A stretch of DNA of 64,000 bases. Source: an uncultured Thermoplasmata archaeon (lineage in GTDB: Archaea > Thermoplasmatota > Thermoplasmata > Lutacidiplasmatales > UBA184). The notes beneath the pieces were generated by a model. The model had not been told where the DNA came from, searched no databases, and worked only from the letters and a program-made list of their open reading frames with translations. This document shows positions 3,805 to 10,356 of this stretch, one piece after another (position 1 is the first letter of the stretch; every line of letters begins with the position of its first letter). Position numbers and translations under genes: made by a program. The DNA is taken from NCBI GenBank assembly GCA_963787975.1, contig CAWBEU010000007.1:21640-85639 (forward strand), read 5' to 3'.

Positions 3805-4763
3805 TCACCCGGTCGTCAAGAGATGCGACCGGACGCGGTCCGGCTCCAGGTCCACGACGAGGCCCTGGAGGACCCCTTCGCTGTAGGCGCTGCCCGGGTT
3901 CACGCAGAGCGTTCGGCCCAGCTGGGAGAATCCTTTCGACTCGTGAATGTGGCCGTGCAGTCCGAGAAGCGGCTGGACCTGCTCAATGGCGGCGCGGACG
4001 GCCGTGCTGCCGACGTGGACCATCTCGGGCTCGCCGCCCGGACCCATCACCTTCGTGAGGTCCGCCGTGAGGCGAGGGGCAAGGTCGAGCTGGGTCCCCA
4101 CTGGCGGGACATGGATATTGAAGACGGTCCGTCCGGGGTTGCTCGAGCTTCTCCACCCACGAGCGCAGCCGTTCGGCGATTTCCGCCTCGGTCAACTCGC
4201 GGTTGGTGTGCCATGGCGTGATGTTGCTGTAGGGGAGGGTGAGCAACTCGTGATGGTCGTCGAGATGGAGGAGTCGTCCGTCGGTCAGTTCCACGTAGTC
4301 GCTCTGCGAGAGGATTCCCTCCATCTCGTCGAAATCGTCGTTCCCGAGCCCGATGAGCGTCCGAATGCCCGTCCCTCGCAGCCGCGTGGCCGCGAGGTCA
4401 ACCCACTGGCCTACCACCTCGAGGGCCAGCTGCTTGAACAGTCGCGTCCGCACGAGGCCGGTCCTGGGACAGCTCCTCCCATTCCTTGAGGGTGGTACGG
4501 TACGGGATCGAGCCCATGGCGCGCAAGTCCTCCTCGAGGCGGGACAGATCGGTAGCTGTCTGCACCCACCGGCGGCTTCCCAGGTAGAGGCCGGTCCATC
4601 CGCCATTCTCGGGCCAGAGGGGTGTGATCGTCTTCCCGGCGATATCGCCCCCGATCAGCAGGACCTGCGCCTCGTAGACCTTCCCGGCGTTCACAAACTT
4701 CCGGAAGCATCGCTCGGACCCGTGCAGGTCGGCCACGAAGAAGATCCGGGTGGGCTTCGCCAT
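3805..4763 (-). pseudogene. Calcineurin-like metallophosphoesterase (copy 1), split by two +1 frameshifts (~4442, ~4128); pseudogene or sequencing error
   Basis: Three consecutive frames give DLHGS/GGD, GNDD...NITPWHT, NIHVPP...GHIHE...NPGS, collinear with the intact paralog 13947-14903. Confidence 0.8.
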
Positions 4764-5533: not shown

Positions 5534-5667
5534 GGACTGTGCGACGATACCATTCCCCCCGTCGGGGAAGGGGGACCTGAGCCCAAAAAGGCTTCCAAAA
5601 CCGTGAACGGGATTGGGATGCCTCCACTGCAGCGAATCGATAAACGCCCTCCCGCTACGGCCCCTCC

Positions 5668-6387
5668 ATGGACGTTCTTGGCTGCCCCGTCCCCGACGAT
5701 TGCTGGGTAGATATCGAGAACGATACGTGGACCCGAGTCGAGGGCGATGGCGTCACGTTCTCCGCCGGGGTGCTCGCCTCCCAGGCGGCCTTCGTCGGTC
5801 GGTACATTTCCGTGCGGTTCCGCGAAGTGGATGGCGTCCTCGAGCGGGAACGCAGCGTCGCGACGCTGGAGAGCCTCCGCTCCACGGCGCCGTTTCGGAT
5901 CCCCGTCACGGCGCGGGTCATCGCCCGGAACGAGGCCCTCGCGACGCGCCCCAAGCTCCTCAATGATTCACCCTATGAGCAGGGGTGGGTCGTACGGATC
6001 GCTCCCTCCGACCCCCGGGACGTTCCCCGGTGGCTGGCGCGCCCGGAGGCGGTACGGGACGTCCTCGCCGCCCGCATCACCGAGCGACGGATCCACTGCT
6101 ATCCCGCCGTCCCTGACCTCGAGATGTACGAGATCGGCTCGGAATGCTCCGCGACACTCGCCAAGCTCGACGAGGAGCTCGGACATCGCGAAGCCGGCGA
6201 CGTGGTCCTGCTCGTCACGGACGACCCCACCAGCCCGATCGAGCTCGTCCGGTGGGCCGACCGTACCGGGCACGCCGTGCTCCACCACCGGGTCGAGGGC
6301 AATCTCCACCATTTCCTCATTCGGAAAGAGGCGGCTCCCGTGCCGCGTGTGCGCCGCGCGACGACCGGGGAGATCGGAAGCGGCTAG
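5668..6387 (+). CDS. Fusion of a GcvH-like (glycine cleavage H/lipoyl-carrier fold) domain with a C-terminal TusA/SirA-like domain
   Basis: N-terminal ATLESLRS...PVTARVIARNEAL...PKLLNDSPYEQGWVVRI (GcvH); C-terminal GSECSATL...GDVVLLVTDDP...HHFLIRK (TusA). Confidence 0.78.
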   Translation: MDVLGCPVPDDCWVDIENDTWTRVEGDGVTFSAGVLASQAAFVGRYISVRFREVDGVLERERSVATLESLRSTAPFRIPVTARVIARNEALATRPKLLNDSPYEQGWVVRIAPSDPRDVPRWLARPEAVRDVLAARITERRIHCYPAVPDLEMYEIGSECSATLAKLDEELGHREAGDVVLLVTDDPTSPIELVRWADRTGHAVLHHRVEGNLHHFLIRKEAAPVPRVRRATTGEIGSG

Positions 6388-7250
6388 ACGGTCTTTTCGA
6401 CCGGCACGCGCACTCGGTTGCCCCACTCGGACCACGAGCCGTCGTAGTTCCGGACGTCGGGGTAGCCCAGGAGATATGTCAGCACGAACCAGGAGTGGCT
6501 CGACCGCTCGCCGATCCGGCAGTATGTGATCACCGGCTTGTTCGGCGTGACTCCCTTCGGAACGTACAGGGCCTCGATCTCCTCACGGGTCTTGAACGTC
6601 CCATCGTCCTTCACGGTCTGGGCCCACGGGATGCTCGCGGCGCCGGGGATGTGGCCTCCGCGTTGGGCGGCCTCGTTCGGGTATTCCGGAGGCGCAGTGA
6701 TCTCGCCCGAGAACTCCTTCGGTCCGCGGACGTCGACCAGCGCGAGCTTGCCGGCCTCGACCTCAGGGAGCCGACCGAGCACGTCCTCGAAGTAGACGCG
6801 CAGCCTGGCGTCAGGCGGGCTCTTCGCGGTGTAGGTGCTGGGGGTGACGGTCGGAACGTCCTTCGTGAGCGGCTTGTCCTCCTCGATCCATTTCTTTCGG
6901 CCGCCGTTCAGGATCCGAACGTCGTTGACGTGATGGTACTTGAACACCCAGAAGGCGTAGGCGGCGAACCAGTTGTTGAAGTCCCCGTACAGGACCAGGG
7001 TGGTGTCCGGTTTGACCCCCTTCGCGCGGAAGAGGGCCTGCAGCTGCGCGGTGTCGATGATGTCCCGCCGGACCTGGTCGTTGATGTCCTTCTTCCAATC
7101 GAACAGGACGGCGCCCGGGATGTGGCCGGTAAAGTAGTTCGCCTGTGGGTCGTAATCGACCTCGGCGACGAGCACCTTCGGGTCCTTGGCGTGTTCGGTC
7201 AGCCAAGCGGTGTCGACCAGGACCTCGGGGTGCGCGAACGGCTTCGACAT
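6384..7250 (-). CDS. Tandem-domain rhodanese (thiosulfate/3-mercaptopyruvate sulfurtransferase)
   Basis: GHIPGA twice, LNGGRKKW, DVR, active-site YCRIGERS, YDGSWSEWG; start placed at MSKPFAHPE. Confidence 0.93.
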   Translation of the reverse strand: MSKPFAHPEVLVDTAWLTEHAKDPKVLVAEVDYDPQANYFTGHIPGAVLFDWKKDINDQVRRDIIDTAQLQALFRAKGVKPDTTLVLYGDFNNWFAAYAFWVFKYHHVNDVRILNGGRKKWIEEDKPLTKDVPTVTPSTYTAKSPPDARLRVYFEDVLGRLPEVEAGKLALVDVRGPKEFSGEITAPPEYPNEAAQRGGHIPGAASIPWAQTVKDDGTFKTREEIEALYVPKGVTPNKPVITYCRIGERSSHSWFVLTYLLGYPDVRNYDGSWSEWGNRVRVPVEKTV

Positions 7251-7886: not shown

Positions 7887-8663
7887 CTACCGTTCGCCCC
7901 ACCGGTACAGGCTCACCGCGATGGCGGTGCCGAGCACGGCGGCCACCGCGAGCAGCCCCGCGTCGAGGGCCGACCCGAAGCCGACCGACACCCCCGCTGG
8001 TAGGAGTCCCACGCTCGACTGGACGATGACCGCCGCGTAGGTTCCGGGCAGGAAGTAGGCGATCGACTGCCAGACGTGCGGGAGCAGCCAGATGGGAAGG
8101 TAGAGCGGGCTCAGCATTCCGAGGGACGTGAACAGCAGGTTGCCCACGGGCCAGATCTCCCGCTGGCTCCGGAGCCGACTCGAAATCGCGATCCCGATCG
8201 CGGAGAAGAGGATCCACAAGAGCCCGATCGAGCCGACCAGCTCGATCCAGGCGATCCAGGGAACGTGGACCACCGAGGCGAGCAGCAGGCTCAGCACCAC
8301 GTAGGCCGGCAGCGCCGCGATCATGTTGGAGACCGCGATGCCGAACAGGTAGCCCACCTTTCCCAGCGGCGAGACGATGAACAGGTCCTGGAGCGAGGAT
8401 TCGAGCCGCCAGTAGGCCGAGTCCCCGAGCACCCAGTTCCCGATGTTCTGGGTGGTGAACAGCATCGCGCCAATGATCTCGAGCGGGAACAGCCCCGGCG
8501 GCGAGATCAATTTGAGGAAGTACAGGAAGATGAACGGCAACAGGATCGGCGCGATCGTCGCCGCCGGGTTCCGGCTGATCCACCGCCAGCCGATCAGGGC
8601 GAAGGCGGGGAAGACGCGGCCCCGGTGAGGCAGCTCGAACGCGGGGGCGGTGGCGCCGGCCAT
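7887..8663 (-). CDS. ABC-2 type transporter permease
   Basis: Six TM segments, LQDLFIVSPL, LSPLYLPIWLLPHVWQSIAYFLPGTY; start at MAGATAP. Confidence 0.8.
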   Translation of the reverse strand: MAGATAPAFELPHRGRVFPAFALIGWRWISRNPAATIAPILLPFIFLYFLKLISPPGLFPLEIIGAMLFTTQNIGNWVLGDSAYWRLESSLQDLFIVSPLGKVGYLFGIAVSNMIAALPAYVVLSLLLASVVHVPWIAWIELVGSIGLLWILFSAIGIAISSRLRSQREIWPVGNLLFTSLGMLSPLYLPIWLLPHVWQSIAYFLPGTYAAVIVQSSVGLLPAGVSVGFGSALDAGLLAVAAVLGTAIAVSLYRWGER

Positions 8664-8665
8664 GT

Positions 8666-9439
8666 TCAGCGCTCCCGCGAGATCCGGCGCGCCCAGTAGA
8701 CGGCCCCCACGAAGGCGAGACTCGCCGCGACGACCAGGCTCACCGAGGCGAGGACTATCCATCCGGTCGGGAGGGGCAGGATCCCCGCCGCATACTCCGC
8801 CACGGCGGCGCCGCCCGCGGTCGGAAGGAGGAGGACGAGGGGCTGCAGCGCCTTAGGGAACAGGAAGAGCGGATAGAAGACCGGCGGGAGGACGCCGAAG
8901 AAATTGAAGAACAGTGTCGAGTACGGCCAGATGCTCCGCATGTTCTTGAACCAGGTCGAGATCATGTAGCCGACCGATGCGGTGAAAACGAACTCCGCGC
9001 CGAGGACGGCGACCAGGACGAGGGTCGCCGGCGCGGTGAACGCGACGATGACGGCAGCGGCCGAGAACAGGACCACGATGGGGAGGCAGTACGCGATCAG
9101 GATCCCCACGGACATCCCGAGGAAGTACGCCTCGGGGGTCATCGGCGAGGCGTGGTAGAGCTCGTGCAGCTTGTGGTCGATCCGGATCCAGGCCGCCTCG
9201 TTCTGGACCCGTTGGCCGATCTGGAACGTCGAAAAGACCACCGCGCCGATGAGCGTGTACCAGAGGTACTGCCGGGCCAGGACGGCCACGAAGACGAGGA
9301 ACACGGCCTGGACGATGATCGACGTCGCGATGGAAAGGACCTCATGCAACTGCACTCGGAGCTCGGTCCCGACGAAGGCCCCGAGGCCGGTCCACCGGGA
9401 TCGGGTGACCGTCGGTAGCGGCGCTTCAAGATTCGTCAT
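8666..9439 (-). CDS. ABC-2 type transporter permease
   Basis: Six TM segments, LHELYHASPM, LPPVFYPL..FPKALQPL; overlaps the ATPase stop. Confidence 0.8.
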   Translation of the reverse strand: MTNLEAPLPTVTRSRWTGLGAFVGTELRVQLHEVLSIATSIIVQAVFLVFVAVLARQYLWYTLIGAVVFSTFQIGQRVQNEAAWIRIDHKLHELYHASPMTPEAYFLGMSVGILIAYCLPIVVLFSAAAVIVAFTAPATLVLVAVLGAEFVFTASVGYMISTWFKNMRSIWPYSTLFFNFFGVLPPVFYPLFLFPKALQPLVLLLPTAGGAAVAEYAAGILPLPTGWIVLASVSLVVAASLAFVGAVYWARRISRER

Positions 9440-10356
9440 TGATGGACCTCCCCACGACGCGAAGGAACGCTTCTTCGAGCGTGACCGGGCCCACGGTCGC
9501 GGTGAGATTGGCGTGGGCCGCGAGCGCGAGGATCTCCTGGAGCCCTCGCGGTCCCGTGATCACGTGCACCGTGTCGCCGTCGCGCACGAGAGGTCCGAAG
9601 GTGGCAAGCTGCGGCGAAATGCCGTCTCCGGAGACCACGGAGACCCGTAACGTTCCGCCGACGCTGTGCTTCAGATCATCCGCCGTTCCTTCCGCGAGGA
9701 GGCGACCACGGTCCACGATGTACAGCCGTTGCGAGAGCGCCTCGGCCTCGTCCAAGTAGTGGGTCGTGAGCAGGATCGTCGACCCCTTGGCGGTCAGCTC
9801 CCGGAACGACTCCCAGACCCCGCGTCGGGCGAACGGATCCATTCCTATCGTGGGCTCGTCGAGGAACAAGAGCGGGGCTTCGGTCGCAATCACGGTGGCC
9901 ACCATCGTCCGTTGCCGTTGTCCCCCGGAGAGGGTAATCGAGAGTCGGTCGGCGACCTCGGTGAGTCCCATCTGCTCGAGAGCGTGATCGGCCCGGCTCT
10001 TCGACGTCTCACGCGTGAATCCCCGGGCGCGGAGGTAGGTGTAGGCCTGCTCTCGCGGCGTCAGGTGCATGAACGGCTTGCCTTCTTGGGGCACGACGGC
10101 GAGGTACGGGCGGACTGATTCCGGGTCGAGCGATCGCGTCCTGACCGAAGATCTCCACGGTGCCCGAGGTCGGTGCGAGCAACGTCGAGGCGATGCGCAG
10201 GAACGTGGTCTTCCCCGCACCGTTCCGACCGAGAAGGGAAATGCGCTCCCCTCGCGAGACGTGGAGGGAGACGCCCGAGAGGGCCTCGATGTCGGGTCCG
10301 CCCCGTCCGCGGTAGATCTTGCGGACGGATTCGGCGCGGAGGGCTTGAGAATTCAT
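9426..10356 (-). CDS. ABC transporter ATP-binding protein, one +1 frameshift near 10129
   Basis: Walker A GRNGAGKTT in ORF 10009-10356; LSGGQRQR, Walker B LLFLDEPT and H-loop TTHY in ORF 9426-10220. Confidence 0.88.

What the first reader, a model, noticed from the sequence alone, without database searches (positions are those of the whole stretch)
5668..7250. GcvH-like domain without the lipoyl lysine fused to TusA, convergent with a rhodanese: possible lipoate-independent sulfur relay
Seen: the H-protein lipoylation motif ES(V)K reads ESLR (Lys to Arg), so canonical lipoylation is impossible. The C-terminal TusA domain has ECSAT in place of CPxP, with the persulfide Cys kept. Further Cys residues occur (GCP, DCW, IHCY). 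The gene overlaps the stop of an intact rhodanese (CRIGER). Established: TusA and rhodaneses carry persulfides, and GcvH-like LbpA proteins work with TusA in sHdr sulfur oxidation but need lipoate. Inference: this is a new domain architecture in which the H-fold is a scaffold or partner-binding module for persulfide transfer.
Basis: partly seen in the sequence, partly recalled or inferred. Interest (0 to 1): 0.72.

Follow-up and report, generated by a model that had tools for sequence, protein, structure and literature searches.

The report
Lysine-less LbpA–TusA fusion with rhodanese partner
A soil archaeon carries a widely conserved but unstudied gene pair, an ordinary thiosulfate-type sulfurtransferase next to a two-domain sulfur-carrier protein that has lost its lipoate-attachment lysine but kept three cysteines, which points to a lipoate-free way of passing sulfur atoms on.

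Summary
ORF 5668-6387(+) encodes 239 aa with an H-protein fold and a TusA fold (Pfam 1.7e-20 and 1.1e-9; AF2 pLDDT 94). It reads ESLR at the lipoyl site (R71, codon CGC) and ECSA in place of CPxP (C160). Its stop overlaps that of an intact two-domain rhodanese (CRIGER, about 62% identical to T. thermophilus 1UAR).

- **Not private, not an artefact.** All 43 Thermoplasmata species have Arg. Bathyarchaeia and Nitrososphaerales switch between K and R at least 8 times.
- **LbpA-type, not GcvH-type.** The H-domain keeps the LbpA Cys pair (C6/C144) and is sister to sHdr-linked LbpAs.
- **No sHdr.** None was found in this genome or in 7 Nitrososphaerales genomes. Five of those also have no detected LplA-type ligase or canonical GcvH.
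- **Rhodanese always adjacent.** It is tail-to-tail in 76 of 76 testable loci and co-directional upstream in four of five remote members; the fifth is a 2 kb fragment. No other gene is shared across lineages.

Best reading: a dedicated, lipoate-independent persulfide acceptor for the rhodanese. The downstream fate of the sulfur is unknown. I rate it a new variant of a known kind; I found no paper on it.

The parts
5668..6387 (+). Fusion gene, 239 aa: LbpA-type H-fold domain joined to a TusA domain
   Evidence: ORF. Pfam GCV_H and TusA. AF2 pLDDT 94, pTM 0.83. Fold matches to H-proteins and to TusA. Orthologs mostly of similar length (about 215-245 aa).
5668..6105 (+). N-terminal H-protein-fold domain (residues 1-146), LbpA-type
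   Evidence: GCV_H matches residues 17-132. TM 0.93 to 1ONL. In the tree it lies in a clade (SH-aLRT 96) sister to sHdr-linked LbpA singles and away from canonical GcvH.
5683..5685 (+). Cys6 (TGC), the N-terminal LbpA hallmark cysteine
   Evidence: Near-invariant in the family. Corresponds to Cys7 of Thioalkalivibrio LbpA2. GcvH lacks it.
5878..5880 (+). Arg71 (CGC) at the lipoyl-lysine position
   Evidence: Aligned to the Lys of ESVK in the genome's own GcvH. Invariant in 119 close relatives. At least 8 K/R changes across the family.
6097..6099 (+). Cys144 (TGC), the C-terminal LbpA hallmark cysteine, followed by a conserved short linker C-[YFW]-P-x-x-P-D
   Evidence: Invariant or near-invariant. 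Corresponds to Cys145 of LbpA2. In published LbpA models it lies within disulfide distance of the N-terminal Cys.
6136..6327 (+). TusA domain (residues 157-220)
   Evidence: Pfam TusA 38.4 bits against a cut-off of 28.6. TM 0.87 to E. coli TusA 3LVJ_C.
6145..6147 (+). Cys160 (TGC), the TusA persulfide-carrier cysteine, in an ECSA context instead of CPxP
   Evidence: The only cysteine invariant across all 32 remote fusion members. Some remote members still read CPGP or CPET at this site.
6384..7250 (-). Two-domain rhodanese, 288 aa, SseA/CysA/1UAR type; this is the protein from the Met codon at 7250, although the longest listed ORF (from a GTG) reaches 7337
   Evidence: Pfam Rhodanese 1.5e-32, two stretches. 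E 2.6e-108 to T. thermophilus rhodanese 1UAR. An ortholog lies adjacent in 76 of 76 testable loci.
6519..6521 (-). Cys244 of the rhodanese active-site loop CRIGER
   Evidence: Aligned to the CRIAER loop of 1UAR.
6384..6387 (.). CTAG: the TAG stops of the two convergent genes overlap

Best explanation
The two genes form a self-contained, lipoate-independent sulfane-sulfur relay.

1. The rhodanese is an ordinary SseA/CysA/1UAR-type thiosulfate sulfurtransferase. It takes the outer sulfur of thiosulfate, or of another sulfane donor, onto Cys244 of its CRIGER loop and releases sulfite. This step is established for close homologues and inferred here.
2. The fusion protein is its dedicated acceptor. 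The persulfide passes to Cys160 of the TusA domain (inferred).
3. From Cys160 the sulfur reaches the Cys6/Cys144 pair of the attached LbpA-type domain. By homology with LbpA these two cysteines sit within disulfide distance (inferred). The pair either holds the sulfur as a persulfide or trisulfide for a downstream acceptor, or resolves it reductively to sulfide and forms a Cys6-Cys144 disulfide.
4. The lipoyl arm that LbpA uses in sHdr sulfur oxidation is not needed. The hairpin tip only has to carry a basic side chain, Arg or Lys.

The sHdr complex is absent, so the downstream fate of the sulfur is open. Candidates are assimilation into cysteine, Fe-S clusters, Moco or thionucleosides, or removal of the sulfite by a SUOX-family enzyme.
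For: **Domains and catalytic cysteines are present and under selection.**

**The H-domain is LbpA-type.**
- It has the N- and C-terminal cysteine pair that defines LbpA and is absent from GcvH (Cao 2018; Cys7/Cys145 within disulfide distance in models).
- Its closest single-domain relative, P0164, lies inside an sHdr cluster with sHdrA-like, Fer4, CCG, DsrE and radical-SAM genes.
- In the tree, fusion domains (23 of 34 rows, the rest short sequences that look like truncated fusion genes) form a clade (SH-aLRT 96) sister to LbpAs. The genome's own GcvH falls in the other half of the tree.

**Lipoate independence.**
- R71 is invariant in 119 relatives and in 43 of 43 Thermoplasmata species.
- There are at least 8 K/R switches, at least 6 of them forced by well-supported branches, some between near-identical sequences.
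- 268 of 271 sampled fusions have K or R at this position.
- Five of 7 Nitrososphaerales genomes carrying the fusion, one of them K-type, have no TIGR00545 ligase hit and no canonical GcvH. Where a ligase is present, so is a canonical GcvH, 3 kb from it in one genome.

**Functional coupling to the rhodanese.**
- It is adjacent tail-to-tail in 76 of 76 testable species loci across three archaeal lineages whose other neighbours differ.
- Only these two genes are shared across the lineages.
- In remote fusion members (23-33% identity) a rhodanese is again adjacent but upstream and co-directional. One such operon also holds DsrE, TusA and a cysteine desulfurase.

**Outside sHdr.** This genome's only CCG protein sits beside SdhA/SdhB. 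No HdrB-like protein was found in 7 Nitrososphaerales genomes.

**Literature.** TusA co-purifies with LbpA in Aquifex, and rhodaneses exchange sulfur with TusA. Rhodanese can use dihydrolipoate as a sulfane acceptor.
Against: - There is no biochemical evidence for any transfer step.
- I could not read the model's coordinates, so the distances C6-C144, C144-C160 and R71-C160 were not measured. C6/C144 proximity rests on homology to published LbpA models.
- About 40% of Nitrososphaerales and Bathyarchaeia orthologs keep Lys. All six Bathyarchaeia genomes tested and two of three K-type Nitrososphaerales genomes do encode an LplA-type ligase, so lipoylation of K-type members is not excluded.
- TIGR00545 would miss LipB/LipM-type transferases or very divergent sLpl ligases.
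- Convergent genes are not co-transcribed, so co-regulation is not shown.
- The TusA motif CPxP is replaced, which might alter or abolish persulfide carriage.
- No downstream acceptor was identified.
Confidence: 0.6

Rival explanations
1. Protein-only thiosulfate reductase or sulfide generator. The Cys6/Cys144 dithiol plays the part that dihydrolipoate plays for rhodanese in vitro. It attacks the persulfide on Cys160 or on the rhodanese, releases H2S for cysteine and Fe-S synthesis, and leaves a Cys6-Cys144 disulfide that thioredoxin re-reduces. This is a specific version of the relay in which the fusion is a reductant rather than a carrier.
For: The Cys pair is conserved and, in LbpA models, within disulfide distance. 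The one fusion that lacks Cys6 also lacks Cys144 (P0167). Dihydrolipoate is a known rhodanese acceptor. In one Nitrososphaeraceae locus the pair lies near SufBD, an assimilatory-type sulfite/nitrite reductase and an IscA-like gene.
Against: No thioredoxin or reductase is linked to the pair. The neighbourhood is a single case. Nothing distinguishes carrier from reductant computationally.
Confidence: 0.2
2. Sulfur supply for molybdenum-cofactor or thionucleoside synthesis. The rhodanese and TusA deliver sulfur to a MoaD/SAMP-type thiocarboxylate, as TusA and TUM1/MOCS3 do in bacteria and eukaryotes. The LbpA-type domain acts as a docking module.
For: A Moco-dependent SUOX-family protein (PF00174) is present in 19 of 22 fusion-bearing genomes against 2 of 10 relatives without the fusion. 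The role of TusA in Moco synthesis is cited in the LbpA paper's reference list. One remote locus lies near a ThiF/ubiquitin-like system.
Against: The co-occurrence is confounded by phylogeny and is not strict: G025 (100% complete), G176 and G202 have the fusion without PF00174. No MoaD, MoeB or Ncs6 gene is linked across lineages. This reading does not explain why the LbpA cysteine pair is conserved.
Confidence: 0.1
3. Ancestrally lipoylated LbpA-TusA. K-type members are lipoylated and work like LbpA, and the Arg forms, including this one, are decayed or regulatory remnants.
For: LbpA singles keep Lys strictly. K-type fusions exist. An LplA-type ligase is present in 2 of 3 K-type Nitrososphaerales genomes and in 0 of 4 R-type ones.
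Against: R-type proteins are under strong purifying selection, with 24 invariant columns in 119 sequences, all three cysteines kept and the rhodanese partner kept. K/R flips occur at least 8 times, some between near-identical sequences. Ligase presence tracks a canonical GcvH. K-type G218 has neither. No sHdr partner exists for a lipoylated LbpA in these genomes.
Confidence: 0.07
4. Artefact: the fusion or the Arg arises from an assembly or sequencing error. This genome shows frameshifts nearby.
For: A metallophosphoesterase 900 bp upstream is split over three frames in this assembly.
Against: The same 215-245 aa architecture occurs in hundreds of independent assemblies. The CGC codon needs at least two changes to give Lys. 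The AF2 model is confident over both domains.
Confidence: 0.01

Closest known systems
LbpA, the lipoate-binding protein of the sHdr sulfur-oxidation system (Cao et al. 2018, PMC6067878; bioRxiv 10.64898/2026.10.01.755906)
   Same: H-protein fold. N-terminal GC-x-x-P-[ED]-D-L-x-Y and a C-terminal cysteine at the same positions (Cys6/Cys144 against Cys7/Cys145). The hairpin has an aromatic residue at +1 and Gly-Pro after it (ES-x-[KR]-[YFW]-x-G-[AP]). It is the phylogenetic sister group. It works with TusA and rhodaneses.
   Different: The lipoyl Lys is Arg, or K/R is interchangeable. No sHdr, sLpl(AB) or LipS1/S2 genes accompany it. It is covalently fused to TusA. It is strictly paired with a two-domain rhodanese.
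TusA sulfur carrier (E. coli TusA, PDB 3LVJ/1DCJ; A. vinosum and H. denitrificans TusA)
   Same: Two-layer alpha/beta fold (TM 0.87). The carrier Cys sits at the N-terminus of helix 1. It partners with rhodanese and DsrE proteins.
   Different: The CPxP motif is replaced by ECSA. It is not free-standing. No TusBCDE, DsrEFH or DsrC partner was looked for or found nearby.
GcvH, the H protein of the glycine cleavage system
   Same: Overall fold (TM 0.93 to 1ONL) and the Pfam family.
   Different: No lipoyl Lys. It scores below the NCBIfam GcvH cut-offs. It has extra cysteines. The genome has a separate canonical GcvH (ESVK) elsewhere.
SseA/CysA2-type thiosulfate sulfurtransferases (T. thermophilus 1UAR; M. 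tuberculosis 3HZU/3AAX)
   Same: The rhodanese partner is about 62% identical to 1UAR over its full length, with two domains and a CRI[GA]ER loop.
   Different: Nothing unusual in the enzyme itself. What is new is its fixed archaeal partner.

Membership tests
GcvH (glycine cleavage H protein) | H-protein hybrid barrel-sandwich fold | tested here: met
   Foldseek TM 0.93 to 1ONL, 0.91 to 3A7L. Pfam GCV_H 73.6 bits.
GcvH (glycine cleavage H protein) | Lipoyl-lysine in the ES(V)K hairpin | tested here: not met
   R71, codon CGC. Invariant Arg in 119 relatives.
GcvH (glycine cleavage H protein) | Scores above the curated equivalog cut-off | tested here: not met
   PRK01202 71.8 bits against 117. 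TIGR00527 53.1 bits against 115.85.
GcvH (glycine cleavage H protein) | Is the genome's H protein for glycine cleavage | tested here: not met
   A separate canonical GcvH (136 aa, ESVK) lies at C9:231253. In the tree it falls in the other half.
LbpA (sHdr-associated lipoate-binding protein) | [quoted passage not shown] | tested here: met
   C6 and C144 are near-invariant. The matching positions 7 and 145 are.
LbpA (sHdr-associated lipoate-binding protein) | Strictly conserved lipoyl-lysine | tested here: not met
   Arg in all 43 Thermoplasmata species. K and R are interchangeable elsewhere.
LbpA (sHdr-associated lipoate-binding protein) | Encoded in or beside an shdr gene cluster | tested here: not met
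   This genome's only CCG protein is SdhE-type, beside SdhA/SdhB. No HdrB-like protein was found in 7 Nitrososphaerales genomes. No shdr genes lie in 80 loci.
LbpA (sHdr-associated lipoate-binding protein) | Accompanied by dedicated sLpl(AB)/LipS1/S2 lipoylation genes | tested here: inconclusive
   This genome gives only a weak TIGR00545 hit (9.5e-6). Five Nitrososphaerales genomes give none. LipS1/S2, LipB and LipM were not searched.
LbpA (sHdr-associated lipoate-binding protein) | Groups phylogenetically with LbpA rather than GcvH | tested here: met
   A clade holding all 23 fusion domains (SH-aLRT 96; 34 rows, the other 11 short sequences that look like truncated fusion genes) is sister to an LbpA clade that includes sHdr-linked P0164. 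The tree uses 145 columns and a quick search, so deep order is weakly resolved.
TusA sulfur carrier | TusA fold and a Pfam score above the gathering cut-off | tested here: met
   38.4 bits against 28.6. TM 0.87-0.88 to 3LVJ_C and 3LVK_B.
TusA sulfur carrier | Conserved carrier cysteine at the start of helix 1 | tested here: met
   C160 is invariant in all remote members. Helix 160-172 in the model.
TusA sulfur carrier | CPxP motif around the cysteine | tested here: not met
   Reads E-C-S-A. A few remote members keep CPGP or CPET.
TusA sulfur carrier | Accepts and donates persulfide sulfur | not testable with these tools
   Needs mass spectrometry of purified protein.
Two-domain thiosulfate sulfurtransferase (rhodanese, SseA/CysA/1UAR type) | Tandem rhodanese domains with the catalytic Cys in a CRxGxR loop of the C-terminal domain | tested here: met
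   Two Pfam stretches. C244-RIGER. E 2.6e-108 to 1UAR, with the loop aligned.
3-mercaptopyruvate sulfurtransferase (SseA equivalog NF008557) | Score above the equivalog cut-off and a CG[ST]GVT loop | tested here: not met
   137.9 bits against 250. The loop is CRIGER, which by general knowledge is the thiosulfate type.

The most novel reading that the evidence does not exclude
The pair is a protein-only thiosulfate and sulfane-sulfur processing module of aerobic soil archaea (Lutacidiplasmatales-like Thermoplasmata, Bathyarchaeia and ammonia-oxidising Nitrososphaerales). In it, the Cys6/Cys144 dithiol of an LbpA-type domain does the job that dihydrolipoamide does elsewhere. That would mean the conserved cysteine pair, whose role in LbpA is still unknown, is itself a sulfur-handling site, and that lipoate is dispensable for this branch of the family.
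Probability: 0.25. Interest if true: 0.8.

Novelty: new variant of a known kind. Interest (0 to 1): 0.66.

Why it matters
**An open question becomes testable.** LbpA, TusA and rhodaneses are known players in sulfur trafficking, but the role of LbpA's two conserved cysteines is unresolved. The 2026 preprint shows only that they are not needed for lipoylation. Here nature has removed the lipoyl-lysine, kept the cysteines, welded the domain to TusA and tied it to one rhodanese. That is a natural separation-of-function variant, and it can be tested with three small soluble proteins.

**Ecological reach.** The pair was found in 349 stretches of GTDB species-representative genomes, in abundant soil archaea that include ammonia oxidisers. 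Sulfur assimilation and thiosulfate handling in these organisms are poorly understood. Sheridan et al. 2022 proposed that Lutacidiplasmatales oxidise sulfite generated from thiosulfate. This pair would be the thiosulfate-splitting front end and would say where the sulfane sulfur goes.

Tried and rejected
- **Assembly artefact or private mutation:** rejected.
- **Part of an sHdr sulfur-oxidation system:** rejected for this genome and for Nitrososphaerales. One relative, G205, does have a separate sHdr-like/LbpA/ligase cluster.
- **A third universally linked gene:** none found. The only other large cross-lineage 'cluster' consisted of antisense ORFs of the fusion gene itself.
- **Metal site C6/C144/C160/H202:** dropped, because H202 is not conserved in remote members.
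- **Lys type correlating with a lipoate ligase:** it looked suggestive in Nitrososphaerales but is explained by co-presence of canonical GcvH.
- **The search for related loci with the most divergent alignment** failed for lack of a conserved stretch. It was repeated with a narrower alignment.
- **The phylum-wide search** found full-length fusions only in the window's own family (3 of 4 genomes). All other hits were single H-domains.
Full report
**1. What is there**

The window comes from contig C7 of a 2.14 Mb, 12-contig genome. Its closest relatives are labelled Thermoplasmata archaeon MAGs from soil and peat. Isolate names such as AcS, SubAcS and UBA184 match the Lutacidiplasmatales set of Sheridan et al. 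2022 (PMC9287336).

ORF 5668-6387(+) encodes 239 aa.
- Pfam finds GCV_H at residues 17-132 (1.7e-20) and TusA at residues 157-220 (1.1e-9, above the gathering cut-off).
- NCBIfam GcvH models match but stay far below their equivalog cut-offs.
- An AlphaFold2 model built on 119 homologues is confident over both domains (pLDDT 94.1, pTM 0.83).
- The model superposes on solved H-proteins (TM 0.93 to 1ONL) and on E. coli TusA (TM 0.87 to 3LVJ_C). No solved structure has the two folds in one chain.

The lipoyl hairpin reads E68-S69-L70-R71. In the genome's own canonical GcvH the same columns read ESVK. R71 is CGC, so it is not a one-base error.

C160 sits at the start of the first TusA helix, in ECSA rather than CPxP.

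The convergent gene, read from the Met codon at 7250 down to the stop at 6384-6386 on the minus strand, gives a 288-aa two-domain rhodanese.
- Its active-site loop is C244-RIGER.
- It matches the T. thermophilus rhodanese 1UAR at E 2.6e-108, about 62% identical, and also actinobacterial SseA/CysA structures.
- The two TAG stops overlap in the palindrome CTAG at 6384-6387.

**2. The fusion is a large, conserved family, and the Arg is a family trait**

| Search | Result |
|---|---|
| Word-indexed protein search, this protein | 450 hits |
| Profile of remote members | 1098 hits |
| Exhaustive search of 50%-identity representatives | about 40 full-length clusters, down to 23% identity |
| GTDB species genomes | 349 stretches |

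The GTDB hits are labelled Thermoplasmata, Bathyarchaeia/Bathyarchaeota and Nitrososphaerales, including Nitrososphaera spp. A few contigs labelled as bacterial MAGs carry sequences nested among the Bathyarchaeia or Thermoplasmata sequences.

Within the window's phylum, a 201-genome sample shows the full-length fusion only in the window's own family, in 3 of 4 genomes. This patchy spread, with 58-63% identity of the rhodanese between lineages, suggests lateral spread of the pair. That is an inference.

The residue at the lipoyl position:

| Set | Residue |
|---|---|
| 119 closest relatives | Arg, invariant |
| 43 Thermoplasmata species loci (42 so labelled, plus L039 labelled 'bacterium') | Arg in all |
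| 14 Bathyarchaeia-clade loci (11 so labelled, plus three labelled as bacterial MAGs) | 8 R, 6 K |
| 23 Nitrososphaerales loci | 12 R, 11 K |
| 271 sampled fusions | 143 R, 125 K, one each T, V and S |

On a maximum-likelihood tree with that column masked, at least 8 K/R changes are needed, and at least 6 of them are forced by well-supported branches. Some separate near-identical sequences such as L072 (K), L074 (R) and L088 (K). A lysine that carries an essential cofactor does not behave like this. The position is constrained to be basic, not to be Lys.

**3. The H-domain is LbpA-type**

The best single-domain matches (145-166 aa) share three features with the fusion:
- the N-terminal motif G-C-x-x-P-[ED]-D-L-x-Y;
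- a hairpin ES-[GA]-K-W-V-G-P;
- a C-terminal cysteine aligned with C144.

Canonical GcvHs, including this genome's own, lack the cysteines and read ESVKAASD.

Cao et al. 2018 define LbpA by exactly these two cysteines, 'that GcvH proteins lack'. A 2026 preprint places them at positions 7 and 145 of Thioalkalivibrio LbpA2 and reports that they are close enough for a disulfide in AlphaFold models. Here they are C6 and C144.

The closest single-domain relative, P0164, lies in a cluster of sHdrA-like, ferredoxin-like, CCG-domain, DsrE and radical-SAM genes. That is an sHdr-LbpA locus.

In a tree of 98 H-domains, all 23 fusion domains fall in one clade of 34 rows (SH-aLRT 96). The other 11 rows are short sequences that look like truncated fusion genes. 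The clade is sister to an LbpA group containing P0164, and canonical GcvHs form the other half (SH-aLRT 98). The tree uses few columns and a quick search, so only this coarse statement is safe.

C6 and C144 are kept in 268 of 271 sampled fusions. The one remote member that lacks C6 also lacks C144 (P0167). That is consistent with the two acting as a pair, but it is a single case.

**4. It does not work with sHdr or, apparently, with lipoate**

This genome's only CCG-domain protein sits directly beside SdhB- and SdhA-like genes, so it is a type-E succinate dehydrogenase subunit and not sHdrB.

I searched 22 fusion-bearing genomes with an sHdrB from the P0164 locus.
- None of the 7 Nitrososphaerales genomes gives a hit.
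- Most Thermoplasmata genomes give a single hit at 31-34% identity, like the Sdh-type protein of this genome; G025's is split into two pieces.
- One relative, G205, has a better hit (46%) next to a single LbpA-like gene and ligase-like genes. That is a separate sHdr-type cluster coexisting with the fusion.

An LplA-type ligase (TIGR00545) is detected strongly only in the six Bathyarchaeia genomes and in two Nitrososphaeraceae genomes. The same genomes are the ones with a canonical single-domain GcvH, and in G213 that GcvH lies 3 kb from the ligase. Five Nitrososphaerales genomes, four R-type and one K-type, have the fusion as their only GCV_H-family gene and no ligase hit.

Two caveats apply. 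LipB/LipM-type transferases and LipS1/S2 were not searched, and the completeness of these MAGs is unknown.

**5. The rhodanese is the constant partner**

In 80 species loci an ortholog of the window's rhodanese (57-93% identical) lies immediately downstream on the opposite strand in 76. In the other four the contig ends within 160 bp of the fusion gene, so they cannot be tested. The gap ranges from an overlap of the two stops to roughly 100 bp.

Other neighbours differ between lineages:
- AHSA1, SUI1 and an ABC-2 transporter in Thermoplasmata;
- unrelated genes in Nitrososphaerales.

Clustering all ORFs of the 80 loci finds only the fusion and the rhodanese shared across the three lineages.

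In four of the five remote fusion clades I looked up (P0133, P0151, P0167, P0169; 23-33% identity) a rhodanese is again adjacent, but upstream and co-directional. In one of them the operon continues with DsrE, a free TusA and a cysteine desulfurase. The fifth look-up, P0144, returned only a 2 kb contig on which neither neighbouring gene has a Pfam hit on record, one of them cut by the contig end. Linkage that survives a change of gene order and orientation is strong evidence for a functional pair.

**6. How it most likely works**

Shown:
- two folds, three conserved cysteines and a basic hairpin tip;
- a fixed rhodanese partner;
- absence of sHdr.

Established for homologues:
- rhodaneses of this type form a Cys persulfide from thiosulfate and release sulfite;
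- TusA carries persulfide on the equivalent cysteine;
- rhodaneses exchange sulfur with TusA, and TusA co-purifies with LbpA;
- rhodanese can hand sulfane sulfur to dihydrolipoate.

Inferred: rhodanese Cys244-SSH passes sulfur to Cys160 of the TusA domain and then to the Cys6/Cys144 pair. The pair either holds the sulfur for a downstream acceptor or resolves it to sulfide and forms a disulfide. The fusion would be a Rosetta-stone record of the TusA-LbpA interaction, with the lipoyl arm made redundant.

The sulfite by-product may be removed by a SUOX-family enzyme. PF00174 is present in this genome and in 19 of 22 fusion-bearing genomes, against 2 of 10 relatives without the fusion. Sheridan et al. 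proposed thiosulfate-derived sulfite oxidation for this order. The association is confounded by phylogeny and is not strict. It fits a Moco-biosynthesis role equally well.

I put 0.6 on the general relay reading. I put less on any particular downstream fate.

**7. Comparison with the known, and novelty**

The rhodanese is ordinary. The fusion fails membership of GcvH: no Lys, below cut-offs, and a separate GcvH exists. It also fails membership of LbpA as defined: no strict Lys and no sHdr. It does share LbpA's fold, cysteine pair and ancestry. It passes TusA on fold and cysteine but not on the CPxP motif.

Databases carry machine labels for the architecture. Four full-text searches found no paper that describes an LbpA/GcvH-TusA fusion. 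The library is not complete, so this is absence in what I could search.

I rate it a new variant of a known kind.

**8. Limits**

- No coordinates, so no distances were measured.
- No biochemistry.
- Earlier notes of this scan on other genomes reached a similar reading. I treated them as leads and re-tested the LbpA relationship, the cysteine pair, the K/R pattern and the rhodanese linkage here. They are not independent support.

Noticed in passing
window 3805-4763 (-): A metallophosphoesterase that is an intact 318-aa gene in relatives (L001 4141-5097) is split over three reading frames here, with breaks near 4442 and near 4100-4140. It is either a pseudogene or the result of indel errors in this assembly.
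   Followed up: partly
window 7887-10220 (-); L103 7675-9335; L060, L062, L070, L076: An ABC-2 transporter (one ATPase and two permeases) lies just beyond the rhodanese and SUI1 in 38 of 43 Thermoplasmata loci. In a very remote fusion clade (P0169) a homologous ATPase (39% identical) and permease (32% identical) follow the fusion gene in the same operon. Four Bathyarchaeia-type loci have a related ATPase 1-3.5 kb away. This may be a loosely linked third component; Nitrososphaerales loci lack it.
   Followed up: partly
G205 (genome of L047) C3:21660-25932: One fusion-bearing Thermoplasmata relative also has a separate cluster of an HdrB-like gene (46% identical to an sHdrB), two single GCV_H/LbpA-like genes and two LplA-like genes. 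A true sHdr-LbpA system can therefore coexist with the fusion.
   Followed up: no
L064 and L071 (same MAG, CAWBAU01); L059 and L092 (same MAG, DATFBG01): Some Nitrososphaeraceae genomes carry two fusion genes on different contigs; in CAWBAU01 both have a rhodanese beside them, while in DATFBG01 the second contig (L092) ends before the rhodanese position.
   Followed up: no
L039, L060, L074, L076: Contigs labelled as bacterial MAGs ('bacterium', Acidiferrales, Dormiibacterota, Methylomirabilota) carry fusion and rhodanese sequences nested among, in two cases nearly identical to, Thermoplasmata or Bathyarchaeia ones. They are probably mis-binned archaeal contigs.
   Followed up: no
L101 (remote member P0151): The rhodanese-fusion pair lies on an archaeal contig that also encodes a ubiquitin-like system (ThiF E1, UQ_con E2, RING fingers, ubiquitin).
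   Followed up: no
own genome C9:203335-203541 (L099 1339-1761): A second, free-standing TusA-like ORF has the cysteine in an LTCKGA context. It lies between an aldolase-like gene and a DapA-like gene.
   Followed up: no
window 5630-5667: An A/T-rich ATAAA box lies about 25 nt upstream of the fusion ATG, with no room for a leader. This fits a leaderless archaeal transcript. It was not tested.
   Followed up: no
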